DNA of 64,000 bases from an uncultured delta proteobacterium (lineage in GTDB: Bacteria > Myxococcota_A > Polyangia > Palsa-1104), in the NCBI GenBank assembly GCA_963785725.1, contig CAWAWS010000039.1, positions 544,001 through 608,000 of the forward strand. The letters run 5' to 3'. Within the stretch, counting starts at the first letter, position 1, and each line of letters starts with the position of its first letter. Positions 22,194 through 36,186 of this stretch are shown here, in pieces. Both the position numbers and the translations under genes were made by a program. The notes beneath the pieces were generated by a model that had not been told where the DNA came from, did not search any database, and was given only the letters and a program-made list of their open reading frames with translations.

Positions 22194-26243
<4,050 letters not shown>

Positions 26244-26394
26244 GGCGTGCCCTTTCCTGTGTCGCCAGTGCCGGTTCTGGTGACGACCGTTTCCGGTTTC
26301 CACTGGTGGTGCGGTTGCTGGTCGATTTAGCAGCGGTCGTGCCACGCGTCGCCCGAAGGGCGGCCGCTCGATCTCCCGCCGATCGCGCGGCGGT

Positions 26395-26431
26395 TGGGAA
26401 AGCCGATTCCAAAAGTGGGAAGGCCGATTCC
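26395..26431. promoter_or_regulatory. tandem 16-bp direct repeat, probable regulator binding site
   Basis: TGGGAAAGCCGATTCC and TGGGAAGGCCGATTCC, 21 bp apart. Confidence 0.55.
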
Positions 26432-26555
26432 TCACGGCAGAACTTGCACAGCCTTCGCACGCCGTCGCCGGCGCGATGCCGCGCTGCGGCAGTGCCGGCG
26501 GCTTGACGGACGCGCCGGCGCCGGCAACGATGTTCGTCCGAAAGGAGCGTGTCCC

Positions 26556-29255
26556 GTGCACCTCCGCAAGCCGCGCTTTTCCCCGCCGCCGGGCCGCGCC
26601 GGGCAGGTCCGTCGCGAGGCGATCTTGGAGCGGCTGTGCGCGCGCGAGGCGCCGCGGATCGTGCTCTTGCAAGGGCCGGCCGGGCACGGCAAGTCGACGA
26701 CGCTGCAGCAGCTGGCGCGCGCGTCGAGCGACGGCGGCGCCCGCGTCGGCTGGCTGACGCTGAGCGACTCCGACAACGACGCGCGCCGCTTCTTCGGCCA
26801 TCTGCAGGGTCTGCTGGCCGCGCTCGCCGTCGACGCCACGCGCGCCGCCGACGCGGCGGTCGACGACGCGCCCGGCACGCCCGATTCCGGCGGCTGCGAT
26901 TGGCTCGTCGACGCGCTCGCCGCCGCCGAGTCGCCGCTGGTGCTGGTGTTCGACGACTTTCAGGCGCTCGACAACCCCGGCATCCTCTCGTTCTTTCGCC
27001 ACTTGCTCGCGGAGTTGCCGGGCAACGCGCGCGTGCTCATCGGCTCGCGCAACACGCCCGACGTCGGCTTCTCGCGCCTCGTCGTCAACGGCGCGGCCGC
27101 GCTCATGCACGCCGCCGAGCTACGCTTCTCGCGCGCCGAAGTGGCCTCGTTCTTCGCGTCGGCCGCCGAGGTCGAGGTCAGCGGCGACGAGCTGGAGAAC
27201 ATCTACCGGCGCTCGGAAGGTTGGCCGGCGGCGCTGCAGCTGTTCCGCCTGACGCTGGCCAGCCCGCAGGTGCGCCGCTCGCTCGGCAGCGCCGACAGCT
27301 ACACGCCGCGCGAGCTGTCGGAATATCTCGCCGAGAACGTGCTCGGGCTGCAGCCGCCCGACGTGCAAGACTTCCTCTTGCGCACGTCGGTGCTGACGCG
27401 GCTGTGCGCGCCCTTGTGCGAGAGCGTGACCGGCCGCGCGGACGCGCACGAGCTGCTCTTACAGCTGGAGCGTTCGGGGCTGTTCTTGACGAGCCTCGAG
27501 TCGGAGTCGCACTGGTTTCAGTATCACGCGCTGTTCTCGTCGTTCTTGGTCGAGCAGCTGCGGACGCGCTCGCCCGAGCTGTTCGTCGACGCGCATCGGC
27601 GCGCGGCGCAGTGGCATCGGCAGCAGCCGGAGTCAGGCGAGCCGGAAGAGATCGTGCGCCACGCCATCGCGTCCGGCGACATGACGCTGGCCGCCGACAC
27701 CTTCAACCGCTGGGCCTCGAGCTTGGTGGCGCTCGGGCAGATCGTCACCGTCGAGCGCTGGTACGATCGACTGCCCTTCGACGAGATCGCGCGCCGGCCC
27801 GATCTGGCGATCAAGGCCGGCTACGCGCTGGCCTTCTTGCGGCGACGGGCGAAGCTACCGGCGCTGCTCGATCGCTTGAGCCAGCTGAGCGGCGGCGACG
27901 TGGCCACGACCCGCGATCCCAAAGTGCTGCTGTCGATGGCGGCGATCTGCGCCGATGACGTCGAGCAGGCGTTCGCCGTCGTCGAGCGCGTCGACTTGCA
28001 TGACGACAGCATCGGCGGCTTCGCGGCGTTCGAGCTGGCGGCGGCGTCGAACCTGTTGGGGCTGAAGGCGATCGCGATGGGCGACCTCGAGAAGGCGCGC
28101 GCGCATTTGGCGCGTGCGCGCGCGCACAACGAGCTCGGCGGCGCGACCTGGAGCCGCGGCTGGACCGAAGGCCTGTTCGGCGTGCTGCATCTGTCGGCGG
28201 GCGATCTGCGGCCGGCGTTGAGCCGCTTCGCCGCGGCCTTGGCCGAAGAGCGCATGCACGTCGACGCCTCGTTTGCCGTGGCGGCGCTCGCTTCCTGTTA
28301 CGTCTGGGCGCTCTACGAAGCCGACGAGCTGGACGCGGCCGAGGCCATCTTCACGCGCTATCGTGAGCTCATCGCGCAATCGACGATCGTCGACTTCTTC
28401 GCGGTGGCGCACGTGGCGATGGCGCGCGTGCATCAGGCGCGCGGCCAGACGGCGCGCGCCGTCGAGCTGCTGGAAGCGGCGGAGGCGATCGGCGACGCCA
28501 ACGGCTGGGCGCGCCTTACGCGGCTCGTCGGCTGGGAGCGCGCGCGGCGGGCGTTGGCGGAGGGCGACGTCGCGCGGGCCAAGGCGATCGCGCCGCGGCC
28601 ATCGTCGGCGCCGCTGCCGTCGTGGACGCTGTTCGCCGACGATCTCGAGGGCGAGTCGCTGGGGCGGATTCGGCTGGCGATTCGCGGCGGCGAGCTGCTC
28701 GAGGCCGAGGCGCGGCTCAAGCGCGAGCTCGGGCGGCAGCCGGCGCGCGTCGTGCGGCGCATGAAGCTGCTCTTGTTGTCGGCGCAGCTGCAGCGCGCCA
28801 AAGGCTCACGCACGGGCACGCAGCGCGCGCTCAGGCAGGCGCTGCAGCTGGGCGCGCCCGGCGGCTTCGTGCGCGGCTTTCTCGACGAGGGCGAGTCGCT
28901 GGTCGAGCTGGCCGACGAGCTCGGGCCGGCTGACGGCGGCGGTCACGTCGCCGCGTCGCGGGCGTTCGTGGGGCGCATCGTCGGCGCGGCCGCGGCGGCG
29001 CCAGCCCACGCGAGCAGCGCCAACGCGGCGACCGCGACCGCGGCGACGGCCGCGGCCAACGAGCCGCTGACCGATCGCGAGCGCGAGGTGCTGTCGCTCT
29101 TGGCCGAGGGCGTGTCCAACCGCGACATCGGCGGCGCCATCTTCATCTCGGAAAATACGGTCAAGTATCACTTGAAGAACATCTATTCGAAGCTGGCGGT
29201 GACGGGGCGCGTGCAGGCGATCGAGGCGGCGCGGCGCATGGGCGTCATCGCATGA
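26556..29255 (+). CDS. MalT/AlkS-like large ATP-binding LuxR regulator
   Basis: [29 protein letters not shown]-terminal LTDREREVL...[24 protein letters not shown]. Confidence 0.92.
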
Positions 29256-29325: not shown

Positions 29326-30000
29326 GTGAAGCTCGCCCTGTCGTGGATGCTGCTGGTCGCTTGCTCGTCGGCAGCACACGCCGATCGCCTGGAGACGCAC
29401 GGCTTCGTCGAGGCGGCCGCGGGCGTCGAGCTGCCGCAGCTGAGCGCGACCTATCGCAGCTTCGCGTCGCCGACGTTCAAGCCGTCGGTGCGCGGCGGCG
29501 TCGAGCTGTGGCTCATTCACGCGGTCGGCTTCGCGCCCGAGGCGCAGCTCGACGTCATCCCCGTCAACGTTCACCAGAACGACCCGATCTTCGTGCGCAA
29601 CGTTCAGACCGGCATGGACACGTACTCGTTGGCGGCGACGTACGGCCGTTATCGCGTGGTCGCCGGCGGCCGCTTCCTCTTCAACCTCGGGCCGGGCGCG
29701 GCGTTCGTGCGCGTCTTGGCCGGCGTCGACGAGCTGAGCGGCAGCGAGAAGCTGACCGCCGTCGGCACGCCCACGCCCGGCGGTCCGCCGACCGGCCAGC
29801 GCTTCAGCTTCGCGTCGACGGCGTTCACCGTGCAAGCCGGCGCCGGCGTCCACTTCGTCTTCGTGCGCCATTTGATGATCGGCATCTCCATCGACGTTCC
29901 CGTCGCCTGGCACAACTTCGGCAAGCCCGATCTCGGCGGCGTACAAAAGTTCACCTCGGTCGACACCGACTTGATGGGCACGCTCGGCTATCGCTTTTAG
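29326..30000 (+). CDS. outer-membrane beta-barrel protein (8-strand type)
   Basis: Signal peptide, alternating beta strands, C-terminal LGYRF. Confidence 0.7.
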   Translation: MKLALSWMLLVACSSAAHADRLETHGFVEAAAGVELPQLSATYRSFASPTFKPSVRGGVELWLIHAVGFAPEAQLDVIPVNVHQNDPIFVRNVQTGMDTYSLAATYGRYRVVAGGRFLFNLGPGAAFVRVLAGVDELSGSEKLTAVGTPTPGGPPTGQRFSFASTAFTVQAGAGVHFVFVRHLMIGISIDVPVAWHNFGKPDLGGVQKFTSVDTDLMGTLGYRF

Positions 30001-30067
30001 CGCGCTCGGCGCTTCGCCGCTGATTTAGCGGCGGCGCCCGAATCATTCGTCGTGTTAACGTAAAGTC

Positions 30068-31105
30068 GTGAACGACCGCGAAGAGCTGCTGGCCGGTAAG
30101 CCTCGGGCGACCGGCAACGAAGCCGAGTCGCCGCAAGGCGTGCCCGAAGTCGATGGCAACAGCGCGGTGGCGCCGCGCGATCGCATGTCGCGCGTGCAGA
30201 ATTCGCGCAATCAGGTCGGCGCCGAGCTGCTGTTTCGCACGTCGGGCGGACGGTTGGGGACGCCGCCGGCCGATCGTCTGGCCGCGCAGCGACAGCAGGC
30301 GACGCAGCACCTGCGCCGTCCGGTGCAGCTGAGCCAGCTGCCGCCCGGCGGCGCCGGCGCCGGCGATGCCAAGCCCGATGACAAGGGCGTGCACGCGGCG
30401 GCGGAAGCGGGCGTCAGCGGTCCGGCGTCGCCGCTGCCGCACGGCGACCGGATCCAACAAGCCTTCGGCAAGCACGACGTCTCGCATATTCAAGCGCACC
30501 TGGGCGGCGAAGCGGACGCGGCCACGCAAGCGATGGGCGCCGAAGCCTACGCGACGGGAAACGAGGTCGCGTTCGGCGGCGGCGAGCCCGGCTTGCATAC
30601 GGCGGCGCACGAAGCCGCGCACGTCGTGCAGCAGCGCGCCGGCGTGCAGATGGCCGGCGGCGTCGGCAAAGAGGGCGACGCGCACGAGAAGCACGCCGAC
30701 GCCGTCGCCGATCGGGTCGTCGCCGGCAAGTCGGCCGAGGATCTGCTCGACGGCGCCGCCAAAGGCGGCACGCCCGGCGCCGCCGTCCAGAAGCAGGCGC
30801 TCGGCGGCCCGGTGCAGATGAAGAACCCGGGCAGCAAAGGCGCCGCGCAAGGGTTGACCAGCGGCGTCGTCAACAAGAAGCCGCCGGCGCTGAAAAAGGG
30901 CGAGCGCGCGGGCGGCTTCCCGTTCGGCAACAAAGAGAAGCGGCTCGACGCGCAAGACAAAGCGGGAAAGCCGATTACGTACACCGAATATGACGTCAAT
31001 GCTTACAACGGCACGAAGCGCGACGCCGAGCGCATCGTCATCGGGTCCGACGGGCGCTGTTGGTATACGGCCGATCATTACGGCAGCTTCACCGAGGTCA
31101 AATGA
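30068..31105 (+). CDS. DUF4157 (eCIS core) domain protein with C-terminal barnase/RNase Sa-like toxin
   Basis: [13 protein letters not shown]...[13 protein letters not shown]...HEKHADAVA, then [12 protein letters not shown]...YTEYDV...RDAERIV...[10 protein letters not shown]. Confidence 0.88.
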
Positions 31106-31557
31106 GCGACGCTCACTCCATTACGAGCTCTCCCGCGCGCGTATGGCAGACGACGCGCGCCGCCAAGCAGGTGCATGACGAGCTGGTCGCGGCCGGCGTC
31201 GCCATCGTCGCGCGGCTCGACGGCGCCGAGGCGCGCGACAAGGCGCACTTCATGACGAGCATCGCCAAGGCGCTCGCCTTTCCCGACTATTTTGGCGCCA
31301 ATTGGGACGCGTTCGACGAGTGTCTCGACGATCTGCATTGGCAAGACAAAGCGATCGTCCTCGTCATCGATCACGCCGACGACTTGTTGGCCGCTGCGAC
31401 AAACGATCGCGCGCTCTTATTCGAGAGCATTGGGCAGTCATTTGCGCCCAATCCCGACTTACCGAATTCGTCATTCAAGGTCGTGCTCGTCGCGCCTAAA
31501 GACGCGCCGATCGTCGCGCTCGCCGCGCAATCCAGCCCCGTCGCCCATCTATCTTAA
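31102..31557 (+). CDS. barstar-family immunity protein
   Basis: [25 protein letters not shown] overlap with the toxin stop. Confidence 0.9.
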
Positions 31558-31670
31558 TAGTCGGCTCGGCAGTCGGCCCACTTAGCCGCGGCTTTACGTG
31601 TGCTTGGACGCGCGCGGACACTTTTTGCGCACATTCTTGACGCGCCGCCCTCGGTAAATCAGCGGCAAAA

Positions 31671-31686
31671 CTACCCACCCGGGTAG
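31671..31686. promoter_or_regulatory. palindromic operator, candidate site for the MalT/AlkS-like regulator
   Basis: CTACCC-ACCC-GGGTAG, 95 nt upstream of the operon start. Confidence 0.6.
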
Positions 31687-31780
31687 GGCCAGGCTTTGCG
31701 GCCACGGCTACATTTCGTCCCGATTTCATTGTTGGGTCACTTCGATTGCGGCGGAACACAGCCAGAGAAGGGGACGAAAC

Positions 31781-32935
31781 ATGGCCAAGAAACCAGTCGT
31801 TCTTTATGGAGCCAGCGGCTACACGGGACGCCTGATCGCGGAGTATCTGCGCGAATTGGGCATTCCATTCATCGCCGCCGGTCGTGACGCCAAGCGCGTC
31901 AAAGAGACCATGGATCGCGTACCCGGGCTCGATCCGGCGACCTTCGACATCATCGAGGTCAAGCACTCGGTCGACGCGCTGACCGAGCTCTTCAAAGGCG
32001 CCAAAGTCGTCTGCAATACCGTCGGTCCCTTCGCCACCTTCGGCAGCGAGGTCGTCGAGGCCTGTTTGAAAGCGGGCGTGCATTATCTCGACACCACCGG
32101 CGAGCAGAACTGGATCAAGGTCTGCGACGAGGAATATGGCCATAAGTTCGCCGATAAGCGGCTCGTGCTCGCGCCCTGCGTGGCGCAGATGTTCACGACG
32201 GGCGAGATCGCGGCGCAGATCTGTCTCGAGACGCCGGGCGTCGACACGCTCGACACGCTGGTCTTGTGGAAAGGGTTTCCCACTTACGCGTCGACGCAAT
32301 CGATCTTTACCATCTTGATGGCGGACCATCTTTATCTCGAGCACAAGCAGTACGTGAAGTGGCCGACGGCGACCGCTTATGAAGTGACGGTGCCGGGACA
32401 ACATCAGACGGCGCTGGCGCTCAGCTGGGGCGGGACGTCGCACCCGATTACGTTCAAGCGCGATCCGCGCGTCGCCACCGTCAAGTCGCTGGGCGGCGTG
32501 TTCGACCGGACGCTGATGACGGGCGTGGTGCAGATCGCGCAGATGGTGGAAGAGAAGATCAAGCCGTTGCCGCCGCAGCAGCAGGTCAAGGCGCTGTCGG
32601 ACGCGGCGGCGAGCGTGCAAGCGGGAATGCCGCCGCGCGAGAGCCACCGCGTCAATACGTCGCTCGATTCGGTGTGGGCGTCGGGGCCGCTCGGCAAAGT
32701 GCACTGCGCGATTTATGGCGCGTGCAACTATAAGCAGACCGGCCTCTTGCAGGCGCACGCCGCCTATCACCTCATTCACGGACAGCCGAAGACGGTTGGG
32801 TTCGCGTCGGGCTGTCAGGCGTTCGGACATCGCGAGCTGCTCGGCGCCTTGCAGAGCTTCGGGCTCGTCGGACAGCCGGTCGTCACCAGCAATTTACCGT
32901 CGGCGCACAATCGGGGGATGAGCCATGGCCGCTGA
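31781..32935 (+). CDS. saccharopine dehydrogenase-like NAD(P)-binding protein
   Basis: YGASGYTG, AGR, NTVGPF, HYLDTTGE. Confidence 0.85.
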   Translation: MAKKPVVLYGASGYTGRLIAEYLRELGIPFIAAGRDAKRVKETMDRVPGLDPATFDIIEVKHSVDALTELFKGAKVVCNTVGPFATFGSEVVEACLKAGVHYLDTTGEQNWIKVCDEEYGHKFADKRLVLAPCVAQMFTTGEIAAQICLETPGVDTLDTLVLWKGFPTYASTQSIFTILMADHLYLEHKQYVKWPTATAYEVTVPGQHQTALALSWGGTSHPITFKRDPRVATVKSLGGVFDRTLMTGVVQIAQMVEEKIKPLPPQQQVKALSDAAASVQAGMPPRESHRVNTSLDSVWASGPLGKVHCAIYGACNYKQTGLLQAHAAYHLIHGQPKTVGFASGCQAFGHRELLGALQSFGLVGQPVVTSNLPSAHNRGMSHGR

Positions 32936-33689
32936 TCTGAAAGGTCGCCGCGCGCTCGTCACCGGCGGCGCGCAAGGGATTGGACGGGCGATCACCAAGC
33001 TGTTCGTCGAGCGCGGCGCGCGCGTCATGATCGCCGACGTCGACGAGCGCGGCGCGATGCGCAGCGCCAACGAGATCGGCGACGCCGTGCGCGCCGTGCG
33101 CTGCGACGTCAGCAGCAGCGACGACTGGAAACGCGCGGTGCAAGCGACGTTGGATGCCTTTGGCGGGCTCGATCTGCTGGTCAATAACGCCGGTGTCGAG
33201 GTCGTCAAGCCGCTCTTCGAGCAGACCGAAGAGGAGTTTACGAGGCTGATGGCGATCAACGTCAATGGCGTGTTTCTCGGTATGAAACATTCATTGGCGC
33301 CTTTGGCGGCGTCGGGAAAAGGCGTCGTCGTCAATATGTCGTCACTGGCCGGAATTGGCGGCGCGCCGCTGTTCGGCTCTTATGCGGCCTCGAAAGCGGC
33401 GGTCATTCAATTGACGCGCGTCGCGGCCGTCGAGCTACGGCAGGCGGGTATTCGCGTCAATGCCGTTTGCCCGGGATTCGTGGGCACGGCGATGGTCGAT
33501 CGGCTGATTCCGGCCGTGGAAGCGGCCGTCGGCGTTCCCTTTAGCGCGCTCGTGGCACTCAAGCAGTCGCGCCTCGGTACGCCGGTAGAGGTCGCCGAAA
33601 TGGTGGCGTTCTTGGCGTCGGACGATGCCTCGTGGACCACCGGCTCTCACTATCTTCTCGACGGCGGTTTGTCAGGAGGCCTTTTATGA
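32925..33689 (+). CDS. short-chain dehydrogenase/reductase
   Basis: TGGAQGIG, NNAG, YAASK. Confidence 0.92.
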   Translation: MAADLKGRRALVTGGAQGIGRAITKLFVERGARVMIADVDERGAMRSANEIGDAVRAVRCDVSSSDDWKRAVQATLDAFGGLDLLVNNAGVEVVKPLFEQTEEEFTRLMAINVNGVFLGMKHSLAPLAASGKGVVVNMSSLAGIGGAPLFGSYAASKAAVIQLTRVAAVELRQAGIRVNAVCPGFVGTAMVDRLIPAVEAAVGVPFSALVALKQSRLGTPVEVAEMVAFLASDDASWTTGSHYLLDGGLSGGLL

Positions 33690-34453
33690 GCTCGCCCTTG
33701 TTGCAGAACAAAGTCGCCATCATCACCGGCGCTGGGCGCGGCTTGGGCGCGGCGGTCGCGGCGGCATATGGCGCGGAAGGCGCGAAGGTCGTCGTCTCCG
33801 ACATCGACGCGGCGGCGGCGACGCGCATCGCCAAGACCATCCCCAACGCCATCGCCAACGCCTGCGACGTGCGCAAGCCGGAAGACGTCGAAGCGCTCGT
33901 CAAGCAGACGATCGACAAGCACGGGCGGCTCGACATCATGGTGCCGAACGCCGGCATCGCCAAGGTCGTCCCGATCGCAGAGATGAGCTACGCCGAGTGG
34001 CGCGAGGTCACGTCGGTCAATCTCGACGGCGTCTTTCTCTGCGTGCGTTACGCGGCGCCGGCGCTCATTGCGGGCGGCGGCGGCGTCATCCTCAACATGT
34101 GCTCGATTACGGCGCAGGCGACGGTGCCGCTCATCGCCAGCTACGCGGCGGCCAAAGCGGGCGTGATGTCACTGACGCAGACCGCGGCCCTCGAATTGCG
34201 CGCGCACAACATTCGCGTCAACGCGATCTTGCCGGGATTCATCGATACGACGCTCGTCAAAGAGCACAAGAAGGCGTTCGAGAAGCTGCTCAATCTGCCC
34301 GACTTCGATGCCGTCATCGCGCAGAAGCAGGGGCGTTACGGCACGGTCGAGGAGGTGGCGAAATTAGCCGTGTTCTTGGCTTCCGATCGCTCGCGCTTCT
34401 CGACCGGCGGCGGCTATGTGCTCGACGGCGGCGCGCGCGCCTCACTGCTGTAG
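33686..34453 (+). CDS. short-chain dehydrogenase/reductase
   Basis: TGAGRGLG, PNAG, YAAAK. ATGA overlap. Confidence 0.92.
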   Translation: MSSPLLQNKVAIITGAGRGLGAAVAAAYGAEGAKVVVSDIDAAAATRIAKTIPNAIANACDVRKPEDVEALVKQTIDKHGRLDIMVPNAGIAKVVPIAEMSYAEWREVTSVNLDGVFLCVRYAAPALIAGGGGVILNMCSITAQATVPLIASYAAAKAGVMSLTQTAALELRAHNIRVNAILPGFIDTTLVKEHKKAFEKLLNLPDFDAVIAQKQGRYGTVEEVAKLAVFLASDRSRFSTGGGYVLDGGARASLL

Positions 34454-34590
34454 TCGCAAATCTCGGAGCGATCGCAATCAGTAGTAGTCGATAACTAAGT
34501 AACCATTAGTAACTAATACGGCCGAGCGCTCAGCGGTCGCTCGGTCAATTTCTGGTCTCGAAAGGTAAACGGGGAGGGCGCGGACCTGTC

Positions 34591-36186
34591 ATGAATCTCA
34601 TCGACTTCTTCGATCGCGGCGCGTTGCACCATCCCGATCGCGACTGTTTCGTGGCGGGCGAGCGGCGCTATCGATATCGGCAGGTCCGCGCGTTGACGCT
34701 GCGACTGGCCAACGGCCTACGTAGTCTCGACTTCGGCGAAGGCAAGAAGGGCGCGGTCCTCAGCTTCAATGATCCGATCGCGTTCTCCTGCGCGCTGGCG
34801 ATCTTGCGCACCGGCGGCGCGTGGGTGCCGCTCAATCCGAAGAGCGGCATTGACGAGCACGCGCATGTACTGACGCAGTTCGACTGCGACCTCGTCTTCT
34901 ATCAGCATCAGCTGGCGCCGGTCGTGGATGCCTTGCGTGCGCGCGTGCCGAACGTGCGCCATTGGCGCTGCATCGACGCGGCCGTCGCCGATGAGCCGGC
35001 GGTCCTCGAATGGGCGGCGCAGCTGAGCGACGACGAGGTGGATCTGCCGCCGAATCCCGAGCGGCTGGCGATGCTCGTCGGCACCGGCGGCACGACCGGG
35101 CGGCCCAAAGGCGTCATGTTGTCCAATCGCAGCGTCGAGACGTTCTGCGCGACGACGCTGGCGGTGATGCCGCACGACGCGCCGCCGGTCTATTTGGCGG
35201 CGGCGCCGCTGACGCACGCGGCGGGGATTCTCTGCTTCCCGTTCTTCGCCGAAGGCGCGACGATCATCGTACACACCAAGGTCGATCCGCAGGCGATCTT
35301 GGCCGCGATCGCGCGCGATCGCGTGACGACATTGTTCCTGCCGCCGACCGCGATCTATATGTTGTTGGCGCAGCCCAATGTGCGCGACTTCGATTATCAG
35401 TCACTGCGCTATTTCATTTATGGCGCCGCGCCGATGTCGACCGACAAGCTCAAAGAGGCGCTGTCCGTGTTCGGGCCGGTGATGGCGCAGCTGTATGGGC
35501 AGAGCGAATCGCCGATGCTGGTGACGTTCTTGACGCCGCGCGAGCACTTCGAGCCTCTGCGGCCTTCGCCCGCGCCTGGCGGCGCGATGAAGGCCGAGCG
35601 CGGCGCCGTGGCCAGCGATGCGCGGCTGCGCAGCTGCGGGCGTGTGACGCCATTTACGCGCGCGTCGATCATGGACGAAGAAGGGCGCCATTTGCCGGTG
35701 GGCGAAGTGGGCGAGATCGTCGTGCGCGGCGACCTGGTCATGAGCGGCTATTATCGCGACGTGGCGGAGACGGTGGCGGCGAGCGAGCACGGCTGGCATC
35801 ACACCGGCGACTTGGGCTATCGCGACGGCGACGGCTATTACACGATCGTCGATCGCAAGAAGGACCTCATCATTTCCGGCGGGTTCAATATTTATCCCGG
35901 CGAAATCGAGCAGGTCTTGTGGTCGCATCCGGCGGTGCAGGACTGCGCGGTCATCGGCGTTCCCGACGATAAATGGGGCGAGGCGGTCAAGGCGTTGGTG
36001 GAGCTGAAGCCGGGACAGACGGCGACGGCGCAGGCGCTCATCGCGTTCTGCAAGATGCGGCTGAGCAGCGTCAAGGCGCCGAAGACGGTGGAGATCCTCG
36101 AGTCACTGCCGCGCAGCACCGTCGGCAAAGTGCTGAAGAAAGAGCTGCGCGCGAAGTATTGGGTCGGTCAGGTGCGTAAGATCTGA
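34591..36186 (+). CDS. acyl-CoA synthetase (AMP-binding)
   Basis: TGGTTGRPKG, YGQSE, HTGDLG, DRKKDLIISGG, GKVLK. Confidence 0.93.
   Translation: MNLIDFFDRGALHHPDRDCFVAGERRYRYRQVRALTLRLANGLRSLDFGEGKKGAVLSFNDPIAFSCALAILRTGGAWVPLNPKSGIDEHAHVLTQFDCDLVFYQHQLAPVVDALRARVPNVRHWRCIDAAVADEPAVLEWAAQLSDDEVDLPPNPERLAMLVGTGGTTGRPKGVMLSNRSVETFCATTLAVMPHDAPPVYLAAAPLTHAAGILCFPFFAEGATIIVHTKVDPQAILAAIARDRVTTLFLPPTAIYMLLAQPNVRDFDYQSLRYFIYGAAPMSTDKLKEALSVFGPVMAQLYGQSESPMLVTFLTPREHFEPLRPSPAPGGAMKAERGAVASDARLRSCGRVTPFTRASIMDEEGRHLPVGEVGEIVVRGDLVMSGYYRDVAETVAASEHGWHHTGDLGYRDGDGYYTIVDRKKDLIISGGFNIYPGEIEQVLWSHPAVQDCAVIGVPDDKWGEAVKALVELKPGQTATAQALIAFCKMRLSSVKAPKTVEILESLPRSTVGKVLKKELRAKYWVGQVRKI
35550..35599. repeat. 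in-frame palindromic insertion inside the acyl-CoA synthetase
   Basis: CGGCCTTC...CGCGCC-TGGC-GGCGCG...GAAGGCCG hairpin bounded by CGAGC direct repeats 45 nt apart. Confidence 0.5.

What the first reader, a model, noticed from the sequence alone, without database searches (positions are those of the whole stretch)
30068..31557. Orphan eCIS-type cargo toxin: DUF4157-barnase fusion with a coupled barstar immunity gene
Seen: a low-complexity N-terminus, a DUF4157 HExxH domain, repeated VQ motifs (PVQL, GVQM, AVQK, PVQM), then a compact RNase keeping the barnase-family catalytic Glu (YTEYD), Arg pair (RDAER) and His (ADHY). A barstar gene overlaps the stop (ATGA). There is no signal peptide and no injection-system structural gene in the window. 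Known: DUF4157 is a core/cargo domain of extracellular contractile injection systems, and barstar inhibits barnase. Inference: a stand-alone polymorphic effector-immunity cassette loaded in trans onto an injection particle and aimed at bacteria or kin. It sits between a regulator and its likely target operon, which suggests an insertion.
Basis: partly seen in the sequence, partly recalled or inferred. Interest (0 to 1): 0.8.

Follow-up and report, generated by a model that had tools for sequence, protein, structure and literature searches.

The report
Injection-cargo barnase with barstar antidote
A likely soil myxobacterium carries a gene fusing a known injection-cargo marker domain to a barnase-type RNA-cutting enzyme, followed by a gene for its predicted blocker; the toxin is likely loaded into a phage-tail-like syringe encoded elsewhere in the genome, an arrangement predicted in print but untested.

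Summary
Observation confirmed. 30068-31105 encodes eCIS_core (DUF4157) plus a barnase-fold RNase with Glu307, Arg318, Arg322 and His337 invariant in 18 of 18 aligned proteins. Barstar (31102-31557) overlaps its stop, and a predicted complex scores 0.88 against 0.00 for the best control (a textbook pair). The genome holds an eCIS locus on two overlapping contigs, a T6SS, and six more DUF4157 genes with other tips. In 151 class genomes, all 43 with three or more DUF4157 genes have eCIS tube genes, but only 21 have a T6SS. A second family has the same DUF4157-barnase-barstar set and no T6SS sheath found. A helical N-terminal segment is shared with other DUF4157 proteins of this family and is a candidate loading signal. 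Loading in trans is therefore likely but untested, and several eCIS genes read frameshifted in this indel-prone assembly. The insertion claim is not supported: an outer-membrane gene lies between regulator and cassette, and strain contigs bridge every junction. Zhang et al. 2012 already tabulate barnase with PVC-metallopeptidase and barstar, and most DUF4157 genes lie outside eCIS operons. New member of a known kind; interest 0.35.

The parts
30068..31105 (+). DUF4157 (eCIS_core)-barnase fusion gene, 345 aa
   Evidence: 18 relatives with both Pfam domains among the best 120 hits
30068..30160 (+). aa 1-31, predicted disordered, charged, no signal peptide
   Evidence: pLDDT below 50; hydropathy
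30173..30331 (+). aa 36-88, two predicted helices around [FY]R[ATS][STGN]GG; candidate loading signal shared with other DUF4157 proteins of this family (function inferred)
30380..30760 (+). aa 105-231, DUF4157/PVC-metallopeptidase domain; HEAAH at 30608-30622, Q188-Q189, E207 at 30686-30688
   Evidence: signature HExxHxxQ-E from PMC3482391
30809..30820 (+). PVQM junction motif at the start of the RNase domain; candidate processing or recombination boundary (inferred)
   Evidence: Q250 nearly invariant; structural match to barnase starts at aa 247-249; motif enrichment
30812..31102 (+). aa 249-345, barnase-fold RNase; E307 (30986-30988), R318 (31019-31021), R322 (31031-31033), H337 (31076-31078), guanine loop FGNKE (30923-30937)
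   Evidence: Z 9.9, rmsd 2.8 A, 88 residues
31102..31557 (+). barstar-family immunity gene, 151 aa, start overlaps toxin stop (ATGA), with an N-terminal extension of about 35 aa
31597..31626 (+). terminator-like hairpin with T tail after barstar; weak, since 5 such sites were found against 2.9 +/- 1.8 in shuffles
30013..30036 (.). left arm of a 24-nt inverted repeat flanking the cassette; role unexplained
31646..31669 (.). right arm of the same inverted repeat (20 of 24 complementary)
29326..30000 (+). context: outer-membrane beta-barrel-like gene between regulator and cassette
   Evidence: (below cut-off)
26394..29255 (+). context: MalT-like LuxR regulator
31781..36186 (+). context: DUF5938, two SDRs and an AMP-binding enzyme (catabolic operon)

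Best explanation
This is a DUF4157-barnase fusion gene coupled to a barstar gene, likely a toxin-immunity pair whose toxin is likely loaded into the tube of an extracellular contractile injection system (eCIS) encoded elsewhere in the genome and likely injected into competing bacteria. Steps: (1) Shown in sequence: the two genes overlap by ATGA, so toxin and blocker would be made together. (2) Predicted: barstar covers the RNase active site (His337/Tyr338 and the 286-290 loop) and protects the producer. (3) Inferred: the N-terminal region, including the family-specific helical segment aa 36-88, is read by the eCIS AAA ATPase, which would unfold the toxin, strip barstar and thread it into the tube lumen. 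(4) Inferred: after injection the C-terminal 97 aa refold and cut RNA after guanine, as barnase does, with Glu307 as base and His337 as acid. DUF4157 may release the tip at the VQ junction (proposed for this domain in print, not demonstrated). (5) Inferred: the gene is one of seven DUF4157 cassettes with different tips served by one particle.
For: Catalytic residues map to barnase E73, R83, R87 and H102 and are invariant in 18 of 18 aligned proteins. The model's aa 249-345 superpose on barnase 4-110, Z 9.9, rmsd 2.8 A over 88 residues. Complex score 0.88, best of 3 controls 0.00; that mark was reached by 116 of 157 solved complexes and 2 of 215 mismatched pairs; runs agree in 100% of contacts, partner pLDDT at least 93. 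This is a textbook pair, so the pass may reflect likeness to solved barnase-barstar. The genome has one PF00545 gene and one barstar gene, and they are this pair. 5 of the 10 closest barstar relatives share source and longest-contig length with a toxin relative, indirect evidence of linkage. eCIS locus on C13 and C9, which overlap by 758 bp at 98.5%: Pvc16, two sheaths, two T4-gp19 tubes, DUF6760, CIS_tube, baseplate hub, gp25, baseplate J, Tail_P2_I, AAA ATPases and a DUF4157 gene. Across 151 class genomes, 43 of 43 with three or more DUF4157 matches have the tube and 21 of 43 have a T6SS sheath; 0 of 32 T6SS-only genomes have three or more, against 22 of 35 tube-only genomes (kin are not independent). 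G315, of another family, has DUF4157-linker-barnase plus barstar, eCIS tubes, and no T6SS sheath found (93% complete). A profile of aa 36-88 ranks two other DUF4157 proteins first among 107,847 six-frame ORFs of the genome (E 2.3e-5 and 2.6e-3). DUF4157 proteins Cgo1/Cgo2 fill the AlgoCIS tube (PMC8894135, passages), and their N-terminal domain is required for loading and is system-specific (bioRxiv 10.64898/2026.05.27.728243, passages).
Against: No experiment on this protein or on any eCIS of this lineage. One sheath gene, the CIS_tube gene and both AAA genes read frameshifted. The assembly is indel-prone (its own contig overlap has 9 mismatches and 2 gaps), so the particle may be intact or decayed. 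The gp5-type spike and PAAR genes lie outside the locus, and no tail fibre was identified. The genome also has a T6SS, and DUF4157 occurs in some T6SS effectors (PMC11297309, passages). The N-terminal segment was found in only 3 of the 7 DUF4157 genes, in 0 of 107 other relatives, and is predicted helical whereas characterised loading sequences are disordered. DUF4157 was dispensable for loading in AlgoCIS, and the known DUF4157 cargo genes lie inside their eCIS cluster, so loading from a distant gene is extrapolated. 9 of 60 genomes with any DUF4157 match had no tube match. Purified AlgoCIS killed none of the bacteria tested.
Confidence: 0.62

Rival explanations
1. The RNase-barstar pair is real but no longer injected: the eCIS is decayed or does not read this protein, and the toxin acts after cell lysis or persists as a toxin-antitoxin-like addiction pair.
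For: Frameshifts in several eCIS genes of this assembly. Divergent DUF4157 (54 bits against 66-113 for the best match in each of the other six genes). A barnase-barstar pair is self-maintaining (established knowledge).
Against: HExxH, E207 and the N-terminal segment are kept across relatives at about 58-71% identity, which implies selection on the chassis. 7 of 7 same-family genomes keep tube genes. The frameshifts fit assembly error.
Confidence: 0.15
2. The toxin is delivered by the genome's T6SS, with DUF4157 acting as an adaptor.
For: A T6SS is present on C22. DUF4157 is reported in some T6SS effectors. Lipoprotein-like genes downstream of related cassettes are typical of T6SS immunity (established knowledge).
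Against: Only 1 of 7 same-family genomes has a T6SS sheath while 7 of 7 have DUF4157 and tube genes. 0 of 32 T6SS-only genomes have three or more DUF4157 genes. G315 has the same set with no T6SS sheath found. No DUF4157 gene lies on C22.
Confidence: 0.1
3. The toxin is loaded into a cell-retained contractile system and kills the producer or sibling cells during development, as reported for Streptomyces coelicolor.
For: Streptomyces eCIS drives developmental cell death rather than attack (PMC10020575, abstract). The locus sits among FHA genes and no tail fibre was identified. Myxobacteria undergo developmental lysis (recalled).
Against: A coupled inhibitor would blunt self-killing. Tips vary widely between genomes, as expected for conflict between strains. 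Lipoprotein-like downstream genes (11 of 27) suggest defence against toxin arriving from outside.
Confidence: 0.1

Closest known systems
PVC-metallopeptidase polymorphic toxins with Tox-Barnase and Imm-Barstar (Zhang et al. 2012, PMC3482391; passages)
   Same: The table row for Tox-Barnase lists PVC among trafficking routes, PVC-Metallopeptidase as the protease and Imm-Barstar as immunity. [quoted passage not shown]
   Different: That work is computational, and its architecture file was not held, so I could not see which organisms carry the fusion. It notes that many PVC toxins lack immunity genes; here one is coupled.
AlgoCIS cargo Cgo1/Cgo2 (PMC8894135, passages; bioRxiv 10.64898/2026.05.27.728243, passages)
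   Same: N-terminal domain, then DUF4157, then a variable C-terminal domain; no signal peptide.
   Different: Cgo genes lie inside the eCIS cluster, have other tips and a mostly disordered N-terminal domain. This gene is on another contig, has a barnase tip, a barstar and a partly helical N-terminus.
eCIS-associated toxins (EATs) of Geller et al. 2021 (PMC8213781) and PMC11297309 (passages; supplements)
   Same: DUF4157 N-terminal to a toxin domain; some toxin-immunity pairs; antibacterial activity on expression in E. coli.
   Different: In the 2021 enrichment table PF00545 occurs 0 times and barstar once inside eCIS operons (files 13-15 not searched, file 12 cut). The 2024 supplements name neither. 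Those studies focus on genes in or near operons and report that most EATs lack immunity genes.
Barnase/binase and barstar of Bacillus; RNase Sa of Streptomyces
   Same: Fold (Z 9.9 to barnase, 8.0 to RNase Sa2), catalytic Glu, Arg, Arg, His, guanine loop, and the barstar binding loop.
   Different: Those are stand-alone secreted RNases (established knowledge). This one has no signal peptide, is about 10 aa shorter, and is fused to DUF4157. The residue that plays Lys27's part is unsettled.

Membership tests
Barnase-type microbial RNase (PF00545) | Profile score above cut-off | tested here: met
   50 bits against cut-off 24
Barnase-type microbial RNase (PF00545) | Catalytic Glu73, Arg83, Arg87, His102 equivalents | tested here: met
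   E307, R318, R322, H337
Barnase-type microbial RNase (PF00545) | Helix plus antiparallel sheet fold | tested here: met
   predicted model, pLDDT 82-93 over aa 261-345; Z 9.9, rmsd 2.8 A
Barnase-type microbial RNase (PF00545) | Lys27 equivalent | tested here: inconclusive
   Sequence profile puts K257 on Lys27, but the structural alignment starts aa 249 at barnase residue 4; K270/K271 face barstar in the complex
Barnase-type microbial RNase (PF00545) | RNase activity | not testable with these tools
   needs an assay
Barstar (PF01337) | Profile score and acidic binding loop | tested here: met
   80 bits against 23.4; Y63, G65, N67, D69, A70 invariant in 10 of 10 and E73 nearly so; aligned to barstar
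Barstar (PF01337) | Binds and blocks the neighbouring RNase | tested here: inconclusive
   prediction only, 0.88 against 0.00, textbook pair
DUF4157 / PVC-metallopeptidase toxin | PF13699 with HExxHxxQ-E, N-terminal to a toxin domain | tested here: met
DUF4157 / PVC-metallopeptidase toxin | Same chassis with variable tips | tested here: met
   7 genes in the genome with unrelated C-termini; same N-terminal segment on other tips
eCIS cargo | eCIS structural genes in the genome | tested here: met
eCIS cargo | eCIS locus intact and able to assemble | tested here: inconclusive
   frameshifts in an indel-prone assembly; spike and PAAR genes dispersed
eCIS cargo | Encoded in or near the eCIS operon (88% of the training EATs in PMC11297309) | tested here: not met
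   cassette on C39, locus on C9/C13; not required in principle, but it lowers the membership claim
eCIS cargo | Hydrophilic, disordered N-terminal loading region, no Sec signal | tested here: inconclusive
   aa 1-31 and 81-101 disordered, aa 36-83 helical; no hydrophobic stretch
eCIS cargo | Physically present in the tube lumen | not testable with these tools
   needs particle purification
T6SS effector | Linkage to VgrG, PAAR, Hcp or the T6SS cluster; tracking with T6SS | tested here: not met
   no such gene in the window; class-wide tracking with the eCIS tube instead
Recent insertion / mobile cassette | Empty site in relatives, target-site duplication or recombinase | tested here: inconclusive
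   no empty-site joint and all junctions bridged in strain contigs; flanking inverted repeat but no flanking direct repeat among the 20 largest families; RNase tip not found in 14 same-family genomes

The most novel reading that the evidence does not exclude
Polyangia-type myxobacteria run a genome-wide, strain-specific arsenal through one eCIS. Scattered DUF4157 toxin-immunity cassettes, up to at least 34 per genome, carry a lineage-specific helical N-terminal address, are loaded in trans and decide kin versus non-kin. This cassette, whose payload is the best-understood bacterial RNase-inhibitor pair, would be the simplest handle to prove trans-loading, map the address and test whether DUF4157 cuts at the VQ junction.
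Probability: 0.3. Interest if true: 0.62.

Novelty: new member of a known kind. Interest (0 to 1): 0.35.

Why it matters
What eCIS particles carry, how cargo is chosen and why most antibacterial eCIS toxins lack immunity genes are open questions (PMC8213781 and PMC11297309, passages). Operon-centred surveys miss most DUF4157 genes. This cassette is small, has a payload with a simple assay and a predictable inhibitor, and has a candidate address shared with sister cassettes, so it is a convenient test case for loading from a distant gene and for the role of DUF4157. The architecture itself would not surprise a specialist, and the host is known here only from metagenome-type assemblies.

Tried and rejected
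Insertion between regulator and operon. The DUF5938 gene was found in 1 of 40 relatives (35% identity) and 2 of 300 phylum genomes. A MalT-like gene lay near it in 1 of 7 other loci (L232 only; flanks of 7-9 kb). Contigs from four soil metagenome runs, laid at 85% or more, bridge regulator-OMP, OMP-toxin, toxin-barstar and barstar-operon; one joint skipping 29544-34971 had only 20 letters on its short side and was rejected. A first reading that the tip lacks barnase helix 1 and that K257 equals Lys27 was dropped after the structural alignment. NCBIfam gave no family for the three cassette-region proteins. The genome-contig scan with the tip returned 80 loci at 36-45% identity, mostly Variovorax; none had a DUF4157 match and 17 had a barstar match. 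The metagenome scan keyed on DUF4157 motifs and returned cassettes with other tips, none with this RNase tip, so the gene neighbours of P0002-P0017 were not read directly. The Atlas search of aa 30-100 gave only unnamed short proteins and one sub-threshold DUF4157 cluster (0.85), a lead only. No RNA holder listed. Pfam named no tip and no downstream gene for the four short sister cassettes; the 4,032-aa one ends in a HATPase_c match that may be a frameshift read-through. The wide VIA search never ran, so the fold of aa 36-231 was barely tested against solved structures. Literature: 'DUF4157' with 'barstar' gave 0 papers; five terms with PVC, barnase and barstar gave only Zhang 2012; 'DUF4157' with 'myxo' gave 6 papers, none on this pair by title or abstract start; searches added nothing on it; 10.1101/2021.10.19.465003 has no 'barstar' or 'barnase' in its main text. 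Three look-ups in earlier scan findings returned nothing.

Full report
Observation. The finding is at the stated place. ORF 30068-31105 (345 aa) matches eCIS_core (DUF4157, PF13699) at aa 128-192 and Ribonuclease (PF00545) at aa 285-344. ORF 31102-31557 (151 aa) matches barstar (PF01337). All three scores are well over the curated cut-offs. Near-identical copies from other assemblies (98% and 97%) show that the frames are real. The nearest labelled relatives are 'Polyangia bacterium', Kofleriaceae and Myxococcota, so a myxobacterium is inferred. Related strains occur in four soil metagenome runs.

The toxin tip. Against solved structures the tip matches binase and barnase (E about 1e-7 for the single sequence; 5e-9 as a profile). 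E307, R318, R322 and H337 align with barnase E73, R83, R87 and H102, and FGNKE with the guanine-binding loop (barnase numbering counted from that alignment, residue roles from established knowledge). These four residues are invariant in 18 of 18 aligned proteins. The AlphaFold model has pLDDT 82-93 over aa 261-345, and aa 249-345 superpose on barnase 4-110 (Z 9.9, rmsd 2.8 A, 88 residues). The domain thus begins at the last VQ motif. The Lys27 equivalent is unsettled.

The immunity gene. The barstar binding loop is kept (Y63, G65, N67, D69, A70 invariant in 10 of 10). The predicted complex scores 0.88 against 0.00 for the best of three controls, a mark reached by 116 of 157 solved complexes and 2 of 215 mismatches. 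H337/Y338 and the 286-290 loop contact D69, A70 and E73. Since barnase-barstar is solved, this shows likeness, not binding. The genome has exactly one gene of each family. Five of the ten closest barstar relatives share source and longest-contig length with a toxin relative (3165, 7739, 65902, 19947 and 1084 bases). This suggests, without showing, that the pair travels together.

Delivery. No structural gene lies in the window, but the genome holds an eCIS locus split between the start of C13 and the end of C9, which overlap by 758 bases. Pfam finds Pvc16_N, two sheath genes, two T4-gp19 tubes, DUF6760, CIS_tube, a baseplate hub, gp25, baseplate J, Tail_P2_I, four FHA proteins, two AAA ATPases and a DUF4157 gene. 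A gp5-type gene, two PAAR matches and a third tube lie on other contigs. One sheath gene, CIS_tube and the ATPases read frameshifted. The overlap itself has 9 mismatches and 2 gaps, so assembly error is likely but not shown. A T6SS is on C22. To choose between the two machines I searched the same 151 class genomes for DUF4157, the tube and the T6SS sheath (tallies). All 43 genomes with three or more DUF4157 matches have the tube and 21 have the T6SS sheath. None of 32 T6SS-only genomes has three or more, against 22 of 35 tube-only genomes. Nine of 60 DUF4157-positive genomes lack a tube match; all nine have one or two matches. By family the pattern holds in both directions (DUF4157, tube, T6SS): f1 7, 7, 1 of 7; f17 18, 17, 2 of 20; f12 5, 1, 13 of 22; f9 0, 0, 6 of 10. 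Kin are not independent, so no P value is given. The tip matched 11 other genomes among 400 of the class. In one, G315 of another family, it ends a 1,035-aa DUF4157 protein followed by barstar; that genome has eCIS tubes and no T6SS sheath found. The six RNase frames read among the other ten, or sized, are short stand-alone genes or were not read in full.

The chassis. The genome has seven DUF4157 genes with unrelated C-termini. Six of six caught by my motif rule on five contigs have a closely coupled downstream frame, against 513 of 1,184 other genes. In 79 metagenome loci of this DUF4157 subfamily none had an eCIS structural match, including 0 of 25 loci of 9 kb or more, so standing alone is the rule. 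The published table agrees: 4,492 of 5,482 DUF4157 domains lie outside eCIS operons (PMC8213781 supplement). Of 43 scorable genes in those loci, 27 had a coupled downstream frame, and 11 of these looked like lipoproteins by a crude rule of my own, against 4 of 48 for other genes there and 66 of 513 in this genome. That hints at immunity against toxins arriving from outside, and so at bacterial targets. Residues 36-88 form two predicted helices. A profile of them, built from the first 13 rows of the alignment, ranks two other DUF4157 proteins of this genome first among 107,847 frames. It also finds four DUF4157-type proteins with other tips in three same-family genomes, one of them frameshifted before its HExxH (the other seven non-self loci scored under 12 bits or not at all), but none of 107 more distant relatives and none in 178 other loci. 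A family-restricted N-terminal segment fits the report that loading sequences are N-terminal and system-specific (bioRxiv 10.64898/2026.05.27.728243, passages), but its role here is inference. A [VILA]Q[RKMFL] motif follows the core in 59 of 66 proteins against 22% of shuffles. Zhang et al. proposed that this peptidase releases its tip. Cgo1 toxicity did not need the HExxH motif.

The insertion claim. An outer-membrane beta-barrel-like gene separates the MalT-like regulator from the cassette. A MalT-like gene lay near the DUF5938 operon in 1 of 7 other loci. Strain contigs bridge all four junctions and show no credible empty site. The tip was not found in 14 same-family genomes, and GC3 falls from 0.91 upstream to 0.77-0.85 across tip, barstar and operon. 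An older gain is plausible, but a recent insertion is not shown. A 24-nt inverted repeat flanks the cassette (20 of 24). Its 12-nt core occurs only at these two places in 8.9 Mb. No shuffle or matched genomic piece of 1,000 each reached 20 of 24, while 3 and 11 reached a 12-nt exact match. It was picked after the fact and is unexplained.

Comparison and novelty. Zhang et al. 2012 (PMC3482391, passages) list Tox-Barnase with PVC trafficking, PVC-metallopeptidase and Imm-Barstar, so the combination is predicted in print; their architecture file was not held and may name such a fusion. The eCIS surveys of 2021 and 2024 do not show it in the files searched (three files of the first were not searched, and bioRxiv supplements are closed). 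A search for DUF4157 with barstar found no paper. It works like an AlgoCIS-type cargo with a barnase payload. It meets the tests for barnase, barstar and PVC-metallopeptidase toxin. Membership as eCIS cargo is likely but unproven.

Verdict. Real, well-formed and ordinary in kind: new member of a known kind, interest 0.35. The eCIS-cargo reading is put at 0.62. The larger idea, a dispersed kin-discriminating arsenal with its own loading address, is put at 0.3 and would deserve about 0.62.

Noticed in passing
window 30013-30036 and 31646-31669: 24-nt inverted repeat in the two spacers flanking the cassette; the 12-nt core occurs nowhere else in the genome. No target-site duplication seen; not found upstream of the other DUF4157 genes (best 8-9 of 12).
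   Followed up: partly
window 31674-31694: Short palindrome about 90-105 bases upstream of the DUF5938 operon; could be an operator for the MalT-like regulator (guess).
   Followed up: no
G000 C13:1-11473 and C9:120314-140313 (L015, L043): eCIS locus split over two overlapping contigs, with four FHA proteins, a VWA domain, a PASTA-Tail_P2_I fusion and a 1,160-aa low-complexity frame without Pfam match; several genes read frameshifted.
   Followed up: partly
G000 C7:895606-896421, C30:58909-59247, C7:796550-797485: Stand-alone gp5-type spike gene, PAAR gene and T4-gp19 tube gene away from the main locus, so the machine's own parts are dispersed.
   Followed up: partly
L238-L242 (G000 C3, C39, C7, C33): Five other DUF4157 genes with unannotated C-termini, each with a coupled downstream frame; the one on C7 looks like a lipoprotein. 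Candidate new toxin-immunity pairs.
   Followed up: partly
L229:1232-5824 (G315 C258): 1,035-aa DUF4157-linker-PT-TG-barnase protein, barstar, a 70-aa frame and a CPCC-domain gene in a row; resembles an array of spare immunity genes (that reading of CPCC is recalled).
   Followed up: partly
L045-L123: Lipoprotein-like genes follow 11 of 27 coupled DUF4157 genes, and 8 of 79 loci have a match to the eCIS-locus AAA ATPase without any structural gene.
   Followed up: partly
window 31781-36186: DUF5938-SDR-SDR-AMP-binding operon is rare in kin (1 of 40 relatives, 35% identity) and closer to proteobacterial plasmid copies (60-64%); likely acquired laterally.
   Followed up: partly
window 22194-27110 (-): Large CheB-CheR-PAS-histidine kinase-receiver hybrid, head to head with the MalT-like regulator.
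   Followed up: no
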